DNA of 64,000 bases from Escherichia phage vB_EcoM_SA35RD. The translations under genes were made by a program, and so were the position numbers. Where the stretch lies: sequence record OL960577.1, one strand, 5' to 3'. This document shows, piece after piece, positions 44,556-64,000 of the stretch. How positions within the stretch are numbered: position 1 is the first letter of the stretch; every line of letters starts with the position of its first letter. Below the pieces are notes generated by a model, which saw nothing but the letters and a program-made list of their open reading frames with translations, was not told the origin of the DNA and ran no database searches.

Positions 44556-45026
44556 TTAATCATGTTTCCACACCCCATCGGTATTTGACCAAAGTCGCTG
44601 ATTATCTGATCCTCGCCACAGCTTTTTGGTCGGAAGATTTTTCTCATACTTCCCATCAATAATAACATCAACATATTTAAGCATTTCTAGTTGTTTAATA
44701 TCTTCAAACTTATATCCTGTCCACAACCAAATGCTTTTACTGGGATAAAGATTTTTTACTGTTTGAACAATGCAATGAATAACATCTCGATTATCAGGAT
44801 AGAGAGGGTCTCCTCCAGTTATAGTTAATCCTTCTATATAATCATTATTCAAACATTCAATTAATTGTTCTAGTGTCTCTCCAGTGAATGGAACACCGTT
44901 TCTAGCATTCCATGTTGATTTATTATAACATCCTTCACATTTATGCAAACAACCTGTAACGAAAAGAACGACCCTGCAACCAGGGCCATTCACAAAATCG
45001 CAAGGATAAAATCTATCATAATTCAT
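44556..45026 (-). CDS. nrdG: anaerobic ribonucleotide reductase activating protein (radical SAM)
   Basis: 156 aa; CLHKCEGCYN cluster; directly downstream of nrdD. Confidence 0.8.
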   Translation of the reverse strand: MNYDRFYPCDFVNGPGCRVVLFVTGCLHKCEGCYNKSTWNARNGVPFTGETLEQLIECLNNDYIEGLTITGGDPLYPDNRDVIHCIVQTVKNLYPSKSIWLWTGYKFEDIKQLEMLKYVDVIIDGKYEKNLPTKKLWRGSDNQRLWSNTDGVWKHD

Positions 45027-46840
45027 TGGTGTTTAACCCTATGCATGATTTCTTTATTTTTGCCAAGATTAAATCCGCGTTCGTTCGGATTTCCCAAATA
45101 ACCACAAGTTCTTCTTATTGTGTTCATCTTTTTAGGGTCAGTTTCTCCGCAAACTGAACAAACAAATCCGTTTTCAGTAGGAGTCATTTCATGGGTACTT
45201 CCACATGTAAAACATTTATCTACTGGCATATTAACACCAAAATAATCTAAATGTTGTGCGGCATAATCCCATACAGCCTCAAGACCTTTTAAGTTATTTT
45301 TCATATCAGGAAGTTCAACATAAGAAATGTGTCCGCCAGTCGCAATGAAATGATATGGGGCTTCGCGAGAAATCTTTTCAAACGGAGTGATATTTTCTTC
45401 TACTGAAACATGGAAACTATTAGTGTACCAGCCTTTATCAGTAACATCCTTTACACTTCCATATTTTTCAGTATCAAGTTTACAGAAGCGATAACAAAGG
45501 TTTTCAGCAGGTGTAGAATACAAACTAAAAGCAAAACCGGTTCTTTCAGTCCACTGTTTAAGATGAGCATTCATTTTAGTTAAAATTTCTTGTCCAATAT
45601 CACGACCGACAAGAATATTCAATTCGTGAATACCAATGTATCCTAGGGACACTGAACTTCTACCGTTTTTAAATAACTCAATTATATCGTCATCAGGTTT
45701 AAGACGAACCCCGAATGCACCTTCTTGGTAAAGAATAGGAGCAACAGTCGCTTTAACTCCTTTTAAGGAACTAATTCTACACATCAAAGCTTCAAAACAC
45801 AAATCCATTCGTTCATTGAACAATTCGGCAAATTTCTGTTCATTGAATTGTGTTCCAATATAAGAATCTAACGCAATGCGAGGAAGATTCAGTGTTACAA
45901 CACCAAGATTATTGCGTCCATCAAGAATTTCATTACCAGTCGAATCTTTCCATACACTCAAGAAACTACGGCAACCCATTGGAGAAACTGGAACTGAAGA
46001 ACCAGTAATAGCTTTATTATTCTTAACCGAAATAATGTCAGGATACATTCTTTTGCTTGCACATTCTAACGCAAGTTGTTTAATATCATAGTTCGGATCA
46101 TCTTTATAAAGATTAACACCTTCTTCAACGAACATAACAAGCTTAGGGAAAATAGGAGTTATTCCATCACGACCAAGGCCTTTAATGCGGTTTTTAAGAA
46201 TTGCTTTCTGAATCATTCGTTCAGTCCAGTCGGTTCCTGTACCAAATGTAATTGTTACAAAAGGAGTCTGTCCGTTTGAACTAAAGAGAGTATTTACTTC
46301 ATATTCATAAGCTTGGAATGCATCGTATACGTCTTTTTCTGTTTTAGATTGAGCATAATTCAACGCATCAGCGATTTGCCATTTTTCTGCATCTTCAACA
46401 TGTTTAGCGTATGTACGTTTAACATAAGGAGAAAGAACTTTATCGACATTTGCAAATGTAGTTCCGCCATACTGATGTGAAGCAACTTGTGCAGTAATTT
46501 GTGCCATAATTGCAGTAGCAACACCAATCGATTTAGGCGTTTCAATTTGAGCATTGCCTAATTTAAATCCATTCTCAAGCATCCCCTTTAAATCGACTAA
46601 ACAGCAATTGGTAAACGGAAGAGCAGGAGAATAATCAATATCATGCATGTGGATAATTCCACTTTCATGCGCATTCATAATAAAAGACGGGACCGTATTT
46701 TTGGCAATGTGCTTAGACACAATACCAGCCATAAGGTCCCGTTGAGTTGGAAAAACACGAGAATCTTTATTAGCATTCTCGTTTAAAAGGTCTTTATTAG
46801 TTTTATGAATTAATCCTTCAATTTCTTTTTCAATTTTCAT
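45023..46840 (-). CDS. nrdD: anaerobic ribonucleoside-triphosphate reductase
   Basis: 605 aa, uninterrupted; C-terminal zinc ribbon CFTCGSTHE...CSVCG and glycyl radical region RRTCGYLG. Confidence 0.85.
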   Translation of the reverse strand: MKIEKEIEGLIHKTNKDLLNENANKDSRVFPTQRDLMAGIVSKHIAKNTVPSFIMNAHESGIIHMHDIDYSPALPFTNCCLVDLKGMLENGFKLGNAQIETPKSIGVATAIMAQITAQVASHQYGGTTFANVDKVLSPYVKRTYAKHVEDAEKWQIADALNYAQSKTEKDVYDAFQAYEYEVNTLFSSNGQTPFVTITFGTGTDWTERMIQKAILKNRIKGLGRDGITPIFPKLVMFVEEGVNLYKDDPNYDIKQLALECASKRMYPDIISVKNNKAITGSSVPVSPMGCRSFLSVWKDSTGNEILDGRNNLGVVTLNLPRIALDSYIGTQFNEQKFAELFNERMDLCFEALMCRISSLKGVKATVAPILYQEGAFGVRLKPDDDIIELFKNGRSSVSLGYIGIHELNILVGRDIGQEILTKMNAHLKQWTERTGFAFSLYSTPAENLCYRFCKLDTEKYGSVKDVTDKGWYTNSFHVSVEENITPFEKISREAPYHFIATGGHISYVELPDMKNNLKGLEAVWDYAAQHLDYFGVNMPVDKCFTCGSTHEMTPTENGFVCSVCGETDPKKMNTIRRTCGYLGNPNERGFNLGKNKEIMHRVKHQ

Positions 46841-47310
46841 TTTAAACTCTTTCTAAGCTGCTTTTTGAATGAAGCTATTAATTGTGTTTTAGTATCAGAT
46901 TCATTATATTCAAATCCTCTTTGAAGCATCTCGGACATCATTTCCTCTTTACCTAGTCTTGAGAACTCTTTAGTTTTGTCTGGAACAAAATTAGGATGGA
47001 TATTATTATCAGAATAATCTTGTTTCAAATAAGCAAGAAGAGATTCAAGCCATTCGAGGTAGTCGACATCACGACCTTTAAGACCAGAACGGTTGAACTT
47101 ATGCTTCATTTGGCCTTCTGCTGCGTTGCACAGATTACAGAGTAACCCACGAACTCTACCTGCTTTTGGCCCGTTTAATTCGTGGTCGTGGTCAAGATGG
47201 TTACCTTGAACATCAGGGTCTAATTCACGGTGGCAAATAGGACACTTACCGTTCTGTGCATCATAAAATTTTTGTTTTTCTTCTTTGTATAATTTGCCAG
47301 ATAATAACAT
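46837..47310 (-). CDS. 49: endonuclease VII gp49 (Holliday junction resolvase)
   Basis: 157 aa; CPICHRELD...HLDHDHE...CNLCN zinc/His motif; TATAAATA late promoter upstream. Confidence 0.75.
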   Translation of the reverse strand: MLLSGKLYKEEKQKFYDAQNGKCPICHRELDPDVQGNHLDHDHELNGPKAGRVRGLLCNLCNAAEGQMKHKFNRSGLKGRDVDYLEWLESLLAYLKQDYSDNNIHPNFVPDKTKEFSRLGKEEMMSEMLQRGFEYNESDTKTQLIASFKKQLRKSLK

Positions 47311-60734: not shown

Positions 60735-61273
60735 TCTTTTATTTCCAGTAGTTTATTTGATTTAAGGTAATTAGCCTTTTCTAGGACTTCAGAAGCATAT
60801 TTACTTCCAGCACTTGTCTTCCATCCCGCATTATATGAGGATATAGCTTTTCTTATATCCCCGTTATGTATATTTAACCAATAAGAAAATTCGATATAAG
60901 CCCATCTGGCTGAATTAGACCGCTTAGATAGCATTTTCTTAATTTGGGCATCAGTCATATTATAACCAAGCTGGTTAATTCTTGCCCTCATTGTTGGTAG
61001 ATAATTTTGGAACATTCCATACGCATGGTGACCTTTCTTATCTTTAAGATTAATACCGGCAGATGATTCTTGCCATAGTATTGCGGCCATTATGTATCCA
61101 AGTCCTTTCTTATGCATATTTTCATGCGTTTTAAATTTTCCGTCCTTAGAAAACTGTTCCCCAAACTGATAAGCATAATTCAAGTTATCGAGTTGGACAT
61201 TACTAAAAGTATGCTCGGAGCTATGTGCTGATAATGAAAGAGCAAATAGACCAGCGAGTAGTGCTTTTCTCAT
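60731..61273 (-). CDS. lytic transglycosylase-like periplasmic protein
   Basis: 180 aa; signal peptide; LWQESSAG...YGMFQ...SYNAG resembles Slt catalytic motifs. Confidence 0.55.
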   Translation of the reverse strand: MRKALLAGLFALSLSAHSSEHTFSNVQLDNLNYAYQFGEQFSKDGKFKTHENMHKKGLGYIMAAILWQESSAGINLKDKKGHHAYGMFQNYLPTMRARINQLGYNMTDAQIKKMLSKRSNSARWAYIEFSYWLNIHNGDIRKAISSYNAGWKTSAGSKYASEVLEKANYLKSNKLLEIKE

Positions 61274-61281
61274 GTTTACCT

Positions 61282-61740
61282 CTAGATTTTAATCACTGCT
61301 TTAGAAGCTTTTCCTGGTAGTCGTTTACTGTTAATAATAGCCATTCTACATTGAAGAGTCTTCATTTTGAATGTCGGATTTTCGCGACAAACTGTAAGTC
61401 CTAACCAAAGATTTCCGTCAGTTATTTCTAAACGGCCTGGACGATACTCGACACCTTCGACAAAATCTTCATCAACATCTGGACGTGCCGGCATTGATAA
61501 AAATTCTGCAACTTCTTTAACGTGATTTTTTACTTTATGAAATAATTCAAAAACGTAATTCTCATCTATTTCTCTCTGGATGGCACGATCTAAGAGATGT
61601 TGAGAATACTTGATATGAAAGCCTGGTAGTCCAAGAGACTTTGCAGCATCTTTTATACCGGCATTTATTTTGCGGAACTCCGTTTCAAAGATTCGACGGA
61701 GTTTATTACGACGGATAAAAACGTCTGAATTGATAGTCAT
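61282..61740 (-). CDS. regB: RegB site-specific endoribonuclease
   Basis: 152 aa; KYSQHLLDRAIQREIDE...RPGRLEITDGNLWLG matches remembered T4 RegB; synteny. Confidence 0.7.
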   Translation of the reverse strand: MTINSDVFIRRNKLRRIFETEFRKINAGIKDAAKSLGLPGFHIKYSQHLLDRAIQREIDENYVFELFHKVKNHVKEVAEFLSMPARPDVDEDFVEGVEYRPGRLEITDGNLWLGLTVCRENPTFKMKTLQCRMAIINSKRLPGKASKAVIKI

Positions 61741-61768
61741 TTTGATTTCTCCTCTAGTTGACAGGTCT

Positions 61769-61797
61769 ATAGTAACACAACTAGAGGAGAAGTAAAC
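61769..61797 (-). promoter_or_regulatory. T4-type early promoter-like element upstream of regB with RBS-pairing spacer
   Basis: GTTTAC-17nt-TACTAT; 14-bp inverted repeat TTCTCCTCTAGTTG / CAACTAGAGGAGAA spans promoter and SD. Confidence 0.45.
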
Positions 61798-61801
61798 TAC
61801 T

Positions 61802-62059
61802 TTATTGATAAAATGGAGTTAAAGCCCAAGATTCTTTAGATACTATATTGGCGAAATGCCTCATCTCTTCGATTTGGCGACGACGTTGGTCAGCATAGTC
61901 TTCTTCGCCTTCTTCCTTACAATCTTCAAGGTCTTCTTCAAGATACTTTAAGTATTCACTACAAATTTTGTTGACCTTTTCTTGGAAGTCCAATAACCCA
62001 GTAATAGTAGAAGCCATTAGTATTTTTCCTCGGGTCGAAATACTGCACGACATGCCCAC
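61802..62059 (-). CDS. hypothetical protein
   Basis: 85 aa ORF. Confidence 0.4.
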   Translation of the reverse strand: MGMSCSISTRGKILMASTITGLLDFQEKVNKICSEYLKYLEEDLEDCKEEGEEDYADQRRRQIEEMRHFANIVSKESWALTPFYQ

Positions 62060-62283
62060 ATGCTGGCTTCTTTTAGATGTTGCTTAGCATACTTAAGAGC
62101 CTGCACTGCATCCATATCTTCTTTGGTTTGTTGCTCTGTTTCATTTTCTTTCAAGATATATGCTTCTTCAATCAGAGCATCAAACATCAATCCAAGACGG
62201 ACTTCTGCATCTTTAATAGCGTTCACTTTACTGATTTTATCATCGGTATGCGGTTTGTAGCCTTTGATGTCTTCAATCGACAT
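62017..62283 (-). CDS. hypothetical protein
   Basis: Start moved to MSIEDIKGYK; longer ORF would overlap upstream gene. Confidence 0.35.
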   Translation of the reverse strand: MSIEDIKGYKPHTDDKISKVNAIKDAEVRLGLMFDALIEEAYILKENETEQQTKEDMDAVQALKYAKQHLKEASMWACRAVFRPEEKY

Positions 62284-62497
62284 AAGGAATTTCCTCATCG
62301 GTGGCAAGGTCATATTCGACCAATTGGATAGGCTCATTAATACCATATCCACGTACAGTGATATCAGTTGTCGGATAGTTTCCAGTAATATCACCCATTC
62401 TAAATGCTTCAGTGAATGATTGCTCGCCTGAGCAACTAAACCAGGCGGCAAAACATTTTAAAACATCTTCAGACCCGTCTATAATCAATTTAGCCAT
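62273..62497 (-). CDS. hypothetical protein
   Basis: 74 aa ORF. Confidence 0.4.
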   Translation of the reverse strand: MAKLIIDGSEDVLKCFAAWFSCSGEQSFTEAFRMGDITGNYPTTDITVRGYGINEPIQLVEYDLATDEEIPYVD

Positions 62498-62859
62498 TAT
62501 AGACTCTCAGTAAAGGTACGAGCGATAACGTCGCGCTGCTGTTCTGGAGTCAGAGAGTTAAAGCGAACTGCATAACCGGATACACGAATGGTCAGCTGAG
62601 GATATTTTTCCGGATGCTTAACTGCATCTTCCAGAGTTTCACGACGCAGAACGTTAACGTTCAGGTGTTGACCACCTTCAATTTTAACTTTAGGTTGATG
62701 TTCAATTTCAATTTCACGGGCGTTAAGACCGTAGAAAATTTCCGGGTCTACAATAGCGTCTTCTTTAAAAGTCTTAGAGACAATAATCCGGGCTTGAGTA
62801 CAGTCTTCAAAATAAATAGTGCCTTTGTGTGTGCCTTCAAGAATTTGATATGCTTTCAT
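62497..62859 (-). CDS. autonomous glycyl radical cofactor (GrcA/YfiD-like)
   Basis: 120 aa; [26 protein letters not shown] glycyl-radical signature. Confidence 0.6.
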
Positions 62860-62865
62860 ATAACC

Positions 62866-63174
62866 TCAATTAGAAAATAAATTTATCCAAGTTTTTTCTT
62901 TAATCAAAAATGGGTCGGAATTAAACGCCATTAAACTTTGAGTGATTAATCCCTTAAATGGCCCATCAATAAATTCCATTTTGAAATGCGGAATACTAGT
63001 CATCAACCGTGCATTAGGAGCAGTACAAAGAACCTGCTGCCCTGCGAACGGACCTTTAGTCAAACGATATCGTTTAGGTTTAAAATGGTAAATCTCGTAA
63101 TTTTCTACAAGGGCCCTTTTATTGCATACTGGACTGTTATAACAATACTCAAAAACTTCAATAGTGGTCATCAT
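62866..63174 (-). CDS. hypothetical protein
   Basis: 102 aa ORF. Confidence 0.4.
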   Translation of the reverse strand: MMTTIEVFEYCYNSPVCNKRALVENYEIYHFKPKRYRLTKGPFAGQQVLCTAPNARLMTSIPHFKMEFIDGPFKGLITQSLMAFNSDPFLIKEKTWINLFSN

Positions 63175-63710
63175 TGCATTCCAATCACAAAAAATTGAGG
63201 ACGAGCATTACTGCCGATGCAATATTTGCTTTTGCAGCAGTGCTGTACTGTTTTAATGTGGACATTGTAAATCTTATCCATATCAGGAGCTTTAATAGGC
63301 TCGTCAATTATATACAGAATACGAGAAAGCGTTAATCCACGGAATTTAGAACCTTCATTGCCAATAAAACTACGAACAGAATCAGTAAATAAACGGAATC
63401 GAATATCGTCGCTAGAATAACGAGAAAATTCTTTTTCAATGTTGCCAGCAGAAATTTTAGCATAAGCTGAAGTATTAGAAAGAACAATAACCGTTCCACC
63501 ATCATACAGCCAATTAGCAGCAAAGTTAGTCACAGCAATTGATTTACCTGATTGTCGGCCGCCGTCTAAACGAAGTGTACAGTACTGCTTGAGTACGTCT
63601 TCAAATGGTGGGGCATAACCGTTCTTACAAATTTCTTCTACTCTAGCATCAGAATGGTGTGTAAAAGCATTCATCAGGGATAGATAAGGTCCAGTTAAAA
63701 ATGTTCTCAT
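63171..63710 (-). CDS. hypothetical protein, possible P-loop NTPase
   Basis: 179 aa; GGRQSGKS and ILYIIDEP resemble Walker A/B. Confidence 0.4.
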   Translation of the reverse strand: MRTFLTGPYLSLMNAFTHHSDARVEEICKNGYAPPFEDVLKQYCTLRLDGGRQSGKSIAVTNFAANWLYDGGTVIVLSNTSAYAKISAGNIEKEFSRYSSDDIRFRLFTDSVRSFIGNEGSKFRGLTLSRILYIIDEPIKAPDMDKIYNVHIKTVQHCCKSKYCIGSNARPQFFVIGMQ

Positions 63711-63823
63711 TTAGTTTCTCTTTTAGGTTGGGCCATTCCGTGGCGCATGAATTGTCCATTTCTGTATTTACCCCTCCAAGTAATTATGAATATACTATCA
63801 CAATTCTAGGAGAAAGTAAACTG

Positions 63824-64000
63824 TTATTTACCTTTAATTACTTTAGCTGCTTCGATAGCCGCTTGCTGAAGGTCATCCATAGACATACCGAATTTAGAAG
63901 CAAAGTTATCAATTTTCTTTTCGACAGCATTCAAAGGCTTGGCCTGTTTACCTTCATTAGCGCCAGGAAGAGCGAGAATACGCTCTTTGTCAATATAAAG
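63824..64000 (-). CDS. hypothetical protein, 5' end beyond window (C-terminal fragment)
   Basis: Hand translation of minus frame ending ...FGMSMDDLQQAAIEAAKVIKGK then stop; open to window edge. Confidence 0.3.
   Translation of the reverse strand, partial: LYIDKERILALPGANEGKQAKPLNAVEKKIDNFASKFGMSMDDLQQAAIEAAKVIKGK

What the first reader, a model, noticed from the sequence alone, without database searches (positions are those of the whole stretch)
62497..62859. GrcA/YfiD-like glycyl radical cofactor encoded apart from nrdD/nrdG
The protein carries the glycyl-radical signature [20 protein letters not shown]. It could act as a spare radical domain for a damaged host or phage glycyl-radical enzyme during anaerobic infection; nrdD and nrdG lie about 16 kb away.
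Basis: partly seen in the sequence, partly recalled or inferred. Interest (0 to 1): 0.4.

Follow-up and report, generated by a model that had tools for sequence, protein, structure and literature searches.

The report
Phage copy of GrcA spare-part protein
This is the well-known T4-type phage gene vs.6 (Y06I), a small glycyl-radical "spare part" that repairs the host's oxygen-damaged pyruvate formate-lyase, so the gene is ordinary; what is unusual is that its 3' half is almost nucleotide-identical to the host's own grcA gene.

Summary
Window 62497..62859 (minus strand) encodes a 120-aa protein with the motif RVSG95YAVRF. nrdD and nrdG lie 15.7 kb away.

The gene is already known. The window is a Mosigvirus-like T-even phage, and the ORF is the syntenic ortholog (93% aa identity) of T4 vs.6. 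[quoted passage not shown] T4 Y06I, which I equate with vs.6 by elimination, was shown in 2001 to be activated by PFL activase and to reconstitute oxygen-cleaved pyruvate formate-lyase. Homologs occur in 1,587 phage records.

The partner is host PflB/PflA, not phage NrdD. The last 64 residues are about 80% identical to PflB 696-759, and there is no significant similarity to the window's NrdD.

One extra result is worth recording. The gene is a chimera. Codons 61-120 are 96.7% nucleotide-identical to E. coli grcA (6 changes, all synonymous). This is the only stretch of the 64 kb that matches any of 5,426 E. coli genomes. Codons 1-60 are phage-specific. Klebsiella Jiaodavirus phages carry a Klebsiella-type 3' half instead. 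That implies at least two independent host-to-phage replacements. I found no report of this in the searchable literature.

The parts
62497..62859 (-). CDS, 120 aa: ortholog of T4 vs.6 (Y06I), a phage autonomous glycyl radical cofactor (GrcA-like)
   Evidence: ORF. Pfam Gly_radical 1.7e-18. TIGR04365 spare_glycyl 159 bits over residues 18-120. 6OWR E=2.8e-42. 93% aa identity to T4 vs.6, in the same vs.5/vs.6/vs.7 order. phrog_1209 matches over the full length, E=1.3e-62.
62497..62679 (-). Host-like 3' half: codons 61-120 plus stop, encoding the structured glycyl-radical domain (equivalent to GrcA 68-127 and PflB ~700-759)
   Evidence: 6 differences in 183 nt from E. coli grcA, all synonymous. 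The megablast tract 62489..62681 hits grcA once in each of 5,426 E. coli genomes and is the only match in 64 kb. The maximum chi-square breakpoint falls at codon 61: 46.7% identity to the left, 96.7% to the right. It carries the E. coli state at 20 of 21 E. coli/Klebsiella diagnostic sites.
62680..62859 (-). [quoted passage not shown]
   Evidence: Only 46.7% nt identity to E. coli grcA in the codon-threaded alignment. Weak residual homology remains (AR.IV.K..ED motif). Similar among phages: 87.8% nt to T4, 72% to Jiaodavirus. GC3 is 0.27 here against 0.37 in the 3' half.
62575..62577 (-). Codon GGT for Gly95, the predicted radical-bearing glycine (= GrcA G102 = PflB G734)
   Evidence: Read directly from the sequence. 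The column is invariant in the alignment. Equivalence follows from the 6OWR and 1H16 alignments.
62864..62867 (-). Shine-Dalgarno GAGG, 4 nt before the ATG; overlaps the stop codon of the upstream gene (vs.7 homolog)
   Evidence: Read from the sequence. No promoter-like site above chance lies nearby, so the gene is probably read through as part of the co-directional vs.8-vs.3 cluster.
45023..46840 (-). Context only: nrdD (anaerobic ribonucleotide reductase, 605 aa, uninterrupted ORF). Not a likely partner.
   Evidence: Pfam NRDD 1.3e-170 and Gly_radical 1.4e-25. No significant similarity to the vs.6-like protein.
44556..45026 (-). Context only: nrdG (the NrdD activase, a radical-SAM protein)
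   Evidence: Pfam Fer4_12 3e-48 and Radical_SAM 2e-07.

Best explanation
[quoted passage not shown] The proposed mechanism has four steps. (1) In a host growing fermentatively, oxygen cleaves active pyruvate formate-lyase (PflB) at its radical glycine G734. (2) The phage protein's C-terminal domain (residues 61-120) docks into the cleaved enzyme in place of the lost C-terminal piece. This domain is identical in amino-acid sequence to the host's own GrcA domain. (3) Host PFL activase (PflA) installs a radical on Gly95. (4) PFL activity, and with it acetyl-CoA, ATP and formate supply, is kept up during infection, when host gene expression is shut off and host GrcA can no longer be made. What is shown here: identity of the gene, the domain, the glycine and the synteny. 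What is taken from the literature for T4 Y06I and E. coli YfiD: activation by PFL-AE and reconstitution of cleaved PFL. What is inferred: the benefit to the phage. A second, evolutionary point also holds. The domain-coding 3' half has been replaced by the current host's grcA sequence at least twice in T-even-like phages, once from Escherichia and once from Klebsiella. The most likely route is homologous recombination with host DNA. The 5' half is inherited within the phage lineage.
For: Family and domain. Ortholog of T4 vs.6, with the same gene order (vs, vs.1, regB, vs.3, vs.4, vs.5, vs.6, vs.7, vs.8). Biochemistry of Y06I and YfiD: PMC8683613, citing Wagner et al. 2001. Conservation: homologs in 1,587 phage records, and vs.6 is one of eleven T4 ORFs of unknown function conserved in all five T4-like genomes compared by Nolan et al. 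2006 (PMC1524935). Purifying selection: 0 nonsynonymous against 6 synonymous differences from E. coli grcA over 60 codons. Host origin of the 3' half: (a) It is the only E. coli-like DNA in 64 kb. (b) There is a sharp breakpoint at codon 61, found at the same place in T4 vs E. coli and in Jiaodavirus vs K. pneumoniae. (c) Window, T4 and JM10 carry the E. coli state at 20, 21 and 21 of 21 diagnostic sites, and Jiaodavirus carries the Klebsiella state at 18 of 21. (d) 637 Escherichia/Shigella phage records are >=95% identical to the E. coli grcA 3' end, and 138 records, mostly Klebsiella phages, are >=90% identical to the K. pneumoniae one. (e) GC3 of the Jiaodavirus 3' half is 0.60 against 0.23 for its 5' half, and host grcA is 0.67.
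Against: No experiment was done on this protein. The evidence for function comes from the 93%-identical T4 protein. No in vivo phenotype of a vs.6 mutant phage was found in the searchable literature. The protein scores 159 bits against the NCBIfam GrcA equivalog, below the curated cutoff of 170, because the N-terminal half has diverged. In YfiD that half is needed for tight binding to cleaved PFL and for efficient radical installation, so the phage protein may bind or be regulated differently. Host tracking is not universal. Slopekvirus, Karamvirus CC31, and the Proteus, Morganella, Aeromonas and T5-like phage copies are only 63-81% nt identical to the bacterial grcA genes available here. The E. 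coli phage Phi1 (Krischvirus) carries mostly Klebsiella-type states.
Confidence: 0.85

Rival explanations
1. The protein is a spare radical domain for the phage's own anaerobic ribonucleotide reductase NrdD, activated by NrdG.
For: nrdD and nrdG are in the same genome, 15.7 kb away. NrdD is also cleaved by oxygen at its radical glycine (established knowledge). Nolan et al. 2006 speculated on a role in nucleotide metabolism from the Pfam hit alone.
Against: There is no significant sequence similarity to the window's NrdD (best E=5.7), and the motif differs: RRTCGYLGNP against [10 protein letters not shown]. The domain is 100% identical to host GrcA and about 80% identical to PflB 696-759, so it is built for the PFL barrel and for PflA. 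Spare parts are known only for formate-lyases. The genes are neither adjacent nor evidently co-regulated.
Confidence: 0.03
2. The protein is a decoy or modulator rather than a repair part. Its phage-specific N-terminal half would make it titrate PFL activase, or occupy PflB/TdcE, to redirect host fermentation (for example formate or acetyl-CoA flux) instead of simply restoring activity.
For: The N-terminal 60 residues differ strongly from GrcA (46.7% nt identity). They are conserved among T-even-like phages, and their start is conserved in T5-like phages too. In YfiD this half governs binding to cleaved PFL and the efficiency of radical installation. A different N-half could therefore change when and on what the domain is installed.
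Against: T4 Y06I is reported to reconstitute cleaved PFL just as YfiD does. The catalytic glycine and the whole domain are kept identical to the host's functional version, which a mere blocker would not need.
Confidence: 0.08
3. The near-identity of the 3' half to host grcA reflects a single ancient capture followed by extreme constraint, including on synonymous sites, and not repeated recombination with host DNA.
For: The domain is extremely conserved at protein level in all bacteria and phages examined. grcA is a highly expressed gene in which codon choice may be constrained (established knowledge).
Against: Eighteen of the 21 sites that distinguish E. coli from K. pneumoniae grcA are third-codon positions. 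E. coli phages carry the E. coli state at 20-21 of 21 sites, and the Klebsiella phage carries the Klebsiella state at 18 of 21. Constraint cannot produce host-specific synonymous states. Other phage lineages have drifted to 63-81% nt identity while keeping the protein, so synonymous sites are free to change. The 3' half keeps host-like GC3 within an AT-rich phage gene.
Confidence: 0.04

Closest known systems
Bacteriophage T4 vs.6 (Y06I; NP_049730, NC_000866 63557..63919)
   Same: Same length (120 aa) and 93% aa identity. Same position between vs.5 and vs.7, downstream of vs.8 and upstream of vs.4/vs.3/regB. Same chimeric build, with an E. coli-like 3' half (98.4% nt to grcA).
   Different: Eight amino-acid differences, seven of them in the N-terminal half. 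The flanking DNA is only about 79% identical, as expected for Mosigvirus against Tequatrovirus.
E. coli GrcA / YfiD (P68066; NMR structure 6OWR)
   Same: A standalone ~14 kDa protein. Residues 61-120 are identical to GrcA 68-127, which covers nearly all of the structured glycyl-radical domain (GrcA 61-127). The radical glycine is the same. Weak homology continues back to residue ~18-21.
   Different: Seven residues shorter. The N-terminal half is strongly diverged (about 25-30% aa identity), so the protein falls below the NCBIfam equivalog cutoff (159 against 170 bits). It is encoded by a virulent phage within an early-region gene cluster, not in the bacterial locus seen here, where grcA has srmB as its neighbour in Klebsiella and eamB in E. 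coli.
C-terminal glycyl-radical domain of pyruvate formate-lyase PflB (residues 696-759; 1H16/2PFL)
   Same: About 80% identical over the last 64 residues, including [13 protein letters not shown]. This is the piece of PflB that the spare part replaces.
   Different: It is not part of an 85-kDa enzyme. At positions where GrcA and PflB differ (for example [15 protein letters not shown] against MNREMLLDAMENPEK, and [12 protein letters not shown] against QDVITRTFTQSM), the phage protein has the GrcA residues. Nucleotide identity to E. coli pflB is only 78%.
Short GrcA2/GrcA3 forms (NCBIfam NF008341, NF038360) and the short T5-like phage homologs
   Same: They share the radical domain: 96-107 bits over residues 56-120. 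Some T5-like phages carry copies that match only residues 38-120.
   Different: These proteins are ~78-80 aa and lack the N-terminal half present here.

Membership tests
[quoted passage not shown] | Small standalone protein (~120-130 aa) whose C-terminal half is a PFL-type glycyl-radical domain | tested here: met
   120 aa. Pfam Gly_radical over residues 59-101, E=1.7e-18. Residues 57-120 align to PflB 696-759, E=3e-26.
[quoted passage not shown] | Conserved radical glycine within RVSGYAV | tested here: met
   G95 in IRVSG95YAVRF. The column is invariant in the alignment with T4 vs.6, other phage homologs and E. coli GrcA.
[quoted passage not shown] | Score at or above the curated cutoff of the NCBIfam equivalog TIGR04365 (spare_glycyl) | tested here: not met
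   159.1 bits against a cutoff of 170. The shortfall comes from the diverged N-terminal half. The model still aligns residues 18-120 to positions 23-126 of 126. This lowers 'strict equivalog of bacterial GrcA', but not 'member of the GrcA/Y06I kind'.
[quoted passage not shown] | Radical installed by PFL activase (PflA), and restoration of activity to oxygen-cleaved PflB | not testable with these tools
   Reported for T4 Y06I and E. coli YfiD (Wagner et al. 2001, as summarised in PMC8683613). The window protein is 93% identical to T4 vs.6 and 100% identical to GrcA across the domain.
T4 vs.6 orthologous group (phrog_1209) | Full-length similarity and conserved position in the vs.8-vs.7-vs.6-vs.5-vs.4-vs.3-regB cluster | tested here: met
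   phrog_1209 aligns 1-120 to 1-121 of 121, E=1.3e-62. Synteny with T4, JM10, CC31 and a Jiaodavirus.
NrdD-associated component (class III ribonucleotide reductase system) | Sequence similarity to the NrdD radical domain, or adjacency to nrdD/nrdG | tested here: not met
   Best BLASTP E=5.7 against the window's NrdD. The gene is 15.7 kb from nrdD with many unrelated genes between.

The most novel reading that the evidence does not exclude
The 183-nt domain-coding 3' half of vs.6 may be repeatedly overwritten by the grcA of whichever host the phage currently infects. The likely route is homologous recombination between the phage genome and host DNA during lytic infection. Two observations fit this: the segment is the only host-identical DNA in this 64-kb window, and Escherichia and Klebsiella phages each carry their own host's synonymous-site signature. 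If so, vs.6 would be natural evidence of ongoing host-to-virulent-phage gene conversion. Its 3' half could also serve as a sequence marker of host genus for T-even-like phages found in metagenomes. I found no description of this in the searchable literature, but most of the older T4 literature is not in that library.
Probability: 0.6. Interest if true: 0.5.

Novelty: already known. Interest (0 to 1): 0.3.

Why it matters
The gene itself changes nothing. It is a routinely annotated T-even gene whose T4 counterpart was characterised biochemically 25 years ago. It does illustrate that virulent enterobacterial phages carry a metabolic maintenance gene suited to the gut's fluctuating oxygen. Its in vivo value to the phage also appears never to have been tested.

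The more useful by-product is evolutionary. A lytic phage gene has its functional domain kept nucleotide-identical to the host gene in a host-genus-specific way. This points to recombination with host DNA in nature and offers a possible host-genus marker.

Tried and rejected
- **Exact 32-mer scan.** I scanned the genome collection for a 32-mer from the Klebsiella phage gene, hoping to retrieve Klebsiella grcA. It hit only Edwardsiella ictaluri grcA. That gene is not especially close overall (23 differences in 183 nt).
- **Route that worked.** Klebsiella, Proteus and Aeromonas grcA were recovered from chromosomes mis-filed as plasmids in PLSDB.
- **Hosts not tested.** No Salmonella, Enterobacter, Citrobacter or Morganella grcA was available. 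Host tracking could not be tested for Karamvirus, the Citrobacter phage Miller or the Morganella phage.
- **Promoter/terminator scan.** The scan of 61200..64000 gave nothing above the shuffled expectation, so no dedicated promoter is claimed.
- **NrdD partnership.** Rejected on sequence grounds.
- **Papers not held.** Miller et al. 2003 (T4 genome), Bowman et al. 2019 and Kammel & Sawers 2022 could not be read.
- **Searches not run.** I did not run the large protein-database searches or a structure prediction. The domain is 100% identical to a solved structure (6OWR), and the verdict did not depend on them.

Full report
**What is there.** Window 62497..62859 on the minus strand is an ATG-to-TAA ORF of 120 aa.
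- A GAGG ribosome-binding site sits 4 nt upstream of the start and overlaps the stop codon of the preceding ORF.
- The gene's own stop overlaps the start of the next ORF (TAATG).
- The quoted string [20 protein letters not shown] is residues 92-111, and the glycine is G95 (codon 62575..62577).
- The match is not chance. Pfam Gly_radical gives E=1.7e-18. The NCBIfam GrcA equivalog TIGR04365 gives 159 bits over residues 18-120. The solved E. coli GrcA structure 6OWR gives E=2.8e-42, and PflB (1H16) gives E=3e-26 over residues 57-120.
- nrdG (44556..45026), nrdD (45023..46840) and endonuclease VII (46837..47310) are confirmed by Pfam. nrdD ends 15.7 kb from this gene.

**What genome this is.** The 2-kb neighbourhood is 97-98% identical to Mosigvirus phages such as Escherichia phage JM10 (Straboviridae, Tevenvirinae). 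In those phages the same ORF is annotated "autonomous glycyl radical cofactor". The surrounding genes are the T4 cluster vs, vs.1, regB, vs.3, vs.4, vs.5, vs.6, vs.7, vs.8.

In T4 (NC_000866) the ORF at the same position is vs.6, also 120 aa. [quoted passage not shown] T4 vs.6 is a ~14 kDa protein and the only standalone glycyl-radical ORF I saw in T-even records, each of which had a single matching place. It therefore corresponds to "Y06I of bacteriophage T4". The vs.6 = Y06I equation is my inference by elimination, supported by my recollection of the UniProt name.

**What is known about it.** Andorfer et al. 2021 (PMC8683613) summarise Wagner et al. 2001.
- E. coli YfiD and T4 Y06I are ~14 kDa spare-part proteins.
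- The radical is installed on them by the PFL activating enzyme.
- They form a complex with oxygen-cleaved PFL and restore its activity.
- These two are the only validated spare parts.

The same paper shows that YfiD residues 1-60 are disordered. Residues 61-127 have the fold of PFL 693-759. [quoted passage not shown] A 2026 review states that formate-lyases are the only glycyl radical enzymes with known spare parts. Nolan et al. 2006 list vs.6 among eleven T4 ORFs of unknown function conserved in all five T4-like genomes they compared. They speculated on nucleotide metabolism from the Pfam hit alone. By tblastn, homologs occur in 1,587 phage records, including T-even-like phages of Escherichia, Klebsiella, Salmonella, Enterobacter, Citrobacter, Yersinia, Aeromonas, Proteus and Morganella, and T5-like Demerecviridae. 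The gene is therefore already known and widely annotated.

**Which enzyme it serves.**
- The protein has no significant similarity to the window's NrdD (best BLASTP E=5.7), whose radical motif is RRTCGYLGNP.
- Residues 61-120 are identical to host GrcA 68-127, and residues 57-120 are about 80% identical to PflB 696-759.
- Where GrcA and PflB differ, the phage protein has the GrcA residues.

The domain is built for the PFL barrel and for PflA. NrdD is an unlikely client, and the separation from nrdD/nrdG carries no meaning.

**An unexpected feature: the gene is a chimera with a host-identical 3' half.** Codon by codon, the last 60 codons plus stop (62497..62679) differ from E. coli grcA at 6 of 183 nt, all synonymous (96.7% identity). 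T4 vs.6 differs at 3 of 183 (98.4%). Upstream of codon 61, identity to grcA falls to 46.7% in a protein-threaded alignment. A maximum chi-square scan puts the breakpoint at exactly that codon for three pairs: window vs E. coli, T4 vs E. coli, and Klebsiella Jiaodavirus vs K. pneumoniae.

Megablast of the whole window against 5,426 complete E. coli genomes gives one match only. It covers 62489..62681, falls in grcA, and appears once in every genome. The other ~63.8 kb give nothing. Third-position GC is 0.37 in the 3' half against 0.27 in the 5' half. For T4 the values are 0.42 and 0.18, and for the Jiaodavirus 0.60 and 0.23.

**Host tracking.** K. pneumoniae grcA was recovered from a chromosomal fragment filed as a plasmid. 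It is 88.5% identical to E. coli grcA over these 183 nt.
- The Klebsiella Jiaodavirus UTI-K4 copy is 93.4% identical to K. pneumoniae grcA but 84.7% to E. coli grcA.
- The window and T4 copies are 96.7% and 98.4% identical to E. coli grcA but 86-87% to Klebsiella grcA.
- The two bacterial genes differ at 21 sites, 18 of them third-codon positions. Of those 21, T4 and JM10 carry the E. coli state at all 21, the window at 20, and the Jiaodavirus carries the Klebsiella state at 18.
- The two amino-acid differences track as well: [12 protein letters not shown] in E. coli and its phages, ETLLDAVEHPEK in Klebsiella and its phages.
- At population scale, the E. coli grcA 3' end finds 637 phage records at >=95% identity; the rows shown at that level were all Escherichia/Shigella T-even phages.
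- The K. pneumoniae 3' end finds 80 records at 95-99% and 58 at 90-95%; nearly all of those listed are ~166-kb Klebsiella phages.

The 5' halves of the phage genes resemble each other (window vs T4 87.8% nt, window vs Jiaodavirus 72%). They do not resemble either host gene. The bacterial genes show no such breakpoint between E. coli and Klebsiella. Together with the GC3 pattern, this sets the direction as host to phage.

The simplest reading has three parts. A phage-lineage vs.6 gene was itself anciently derived from a grcA, since weak homology persists back to residue ~18. Its domain-coding half was then replaced by host grcA sequence at least twice independently. The replacement tract is bounded upstream by the point where phage-host homology runs out. 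Homologous recombination with host DNA during infection is the obvious mechanism, but that is inference and not shown.

**Limits of that reading.** Tracking is not universal.
- Slopekvirus, Karamvirus CC31, Citrobacter phage Miller, and the Morganella, Proteus, Aeromonas and T5-like copies are only 63-81% identical to the bacterial sequences I had.
- The E. coli phage Phi1 carries mostly Klebsiella-type states.
- Several of these phages could not be compared with their true host genus.
- Phage-phage mosaicism is common in this region. Window vs T4 identity ranges from 51% to 97% in 90-nt windows, with high spots elsewhere too. The evidence for host origin therefore rests on the comparison with bacterial genes, not on phage-phage identity.
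- I found no paper describing this pattern, but much of the older T4 literature is not in the library.

**Mechanism and confidence.** The best explanation (0.85) is a phage-encoded PFL spare part. After oxygen cleaves PflB at G734, the C-terminal domain of the phage protein replaces the lost piece, PflA puts the radical on G95, and fermentative acetyl-CoA/ATP production continues while host protein synthesis is shut off.
- Shown here: gene identity, domain, glycine, synteny, conservation and purifying selection.
- Taken from the literature on the T4 ortholog: activation and rescue.
- Inferred: the fitness benefit.

The rivals are NrdD repair (0.03) and a decoy or modulator role that uses the phage-specific N-terminal half (0.08). 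For the nucleotide identity, the rival is a single ancient capture with extreme constraint (0.04), which is contradicted.

**Verdict.** Novelty: already known. Interest is 0.3. That score is raised slightly above a routine annotation by the host-tracking chimeric structure, which may be unreported and is directly testable.

Noticed in passing
window 62489..62681: This is the only stretch of the whole 64-kb window with megablast-level similarity to any of 5,426 complete E. coli genomes. It is the 3' half of the vs.6-like gene and matches grcA once per genome at about 95-96% identity.
   Followed up: yes
L004:1501-1863 (Klebsiella phage UTI-K4) against L008:101-484 (K. pneumoniae grcA): Klebsiella Jiaodavirus phages carry a vs.6 whose 3' half is 93-97% nt identical to Klebsiella grcA and has the Klebsiella-specific residues (ETLLDAVEHPEK). 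Its 5' half is phage-type with GC3 0.23. This is host-genus tracking of the radical domain.
   Followed up: yes
window 62017..62451 (-): The vs.4 homolog, two genes downstream of vs.6, matches Pfam Acb2_Tad1_hairpin (E=3e-17), the anti-CBASS/cyclic-nucleotide sponge family. The listed ORF starts at a TTG and overlaps vs.5. The real start is probably an internal ATG giving a product of about 90 aa, as in T4.
   Followed up: partly
window 45023..46840 (-): nrdD is a single uninterrupted 605-aa ORF here. From memory, T4 nrdD (sunY) is split by a group I intron, so this phage appears to have an intron-less allele. I did not check this against the T4 record.
   Followed up: no
phage records (e.g. 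MK972715.1 42114..42341; L006:1501-1869): T5-like Demerecviridae carry GrcA homologs in two forms. One is full-length (~122 aa) with the same MKAYQ start as the T-even proteins. The other matches only residues 38-120. The full-length copy in L006 has three tRNA genes about 360-520 nt upstream of it.
   Followed up: no
L018:52-468 (Escherichia phage Phi1, Krischvirus): This E. coli phage has a longer vs.6 (138 aa). Its radical-domain segment carries mostly Klebsiella-type states (12 of 21 against 3 E. coli-type) and reads EMLLDAVEHPEK. It is an exception to simple host tracking and may reflect a different donor or a past host.
   Followed up: partly
L009:101-485 (Klebsiella aerogenes NCTC10006, LR134122.1): grcA in this assembly is 385 nt and reads as frameshifted in its 3' part, probably a sequencing error. 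More generally, several PLSDB 'plasmid' records of 0.3-5 Mb are chromosomes or chromosome fragments.
   Followed up: no
window 62803..62891 and 63449..63538: Two further short islands of 96-97% identity to T4 stand in a background of 50-85%. They lie at the 5' end of vs.6 (and its junction with vs.7) and inside the vs.8 homolog. They show no E. coli similarity and probably reflect phage-phage mosaic recombination.
   Followed up: no
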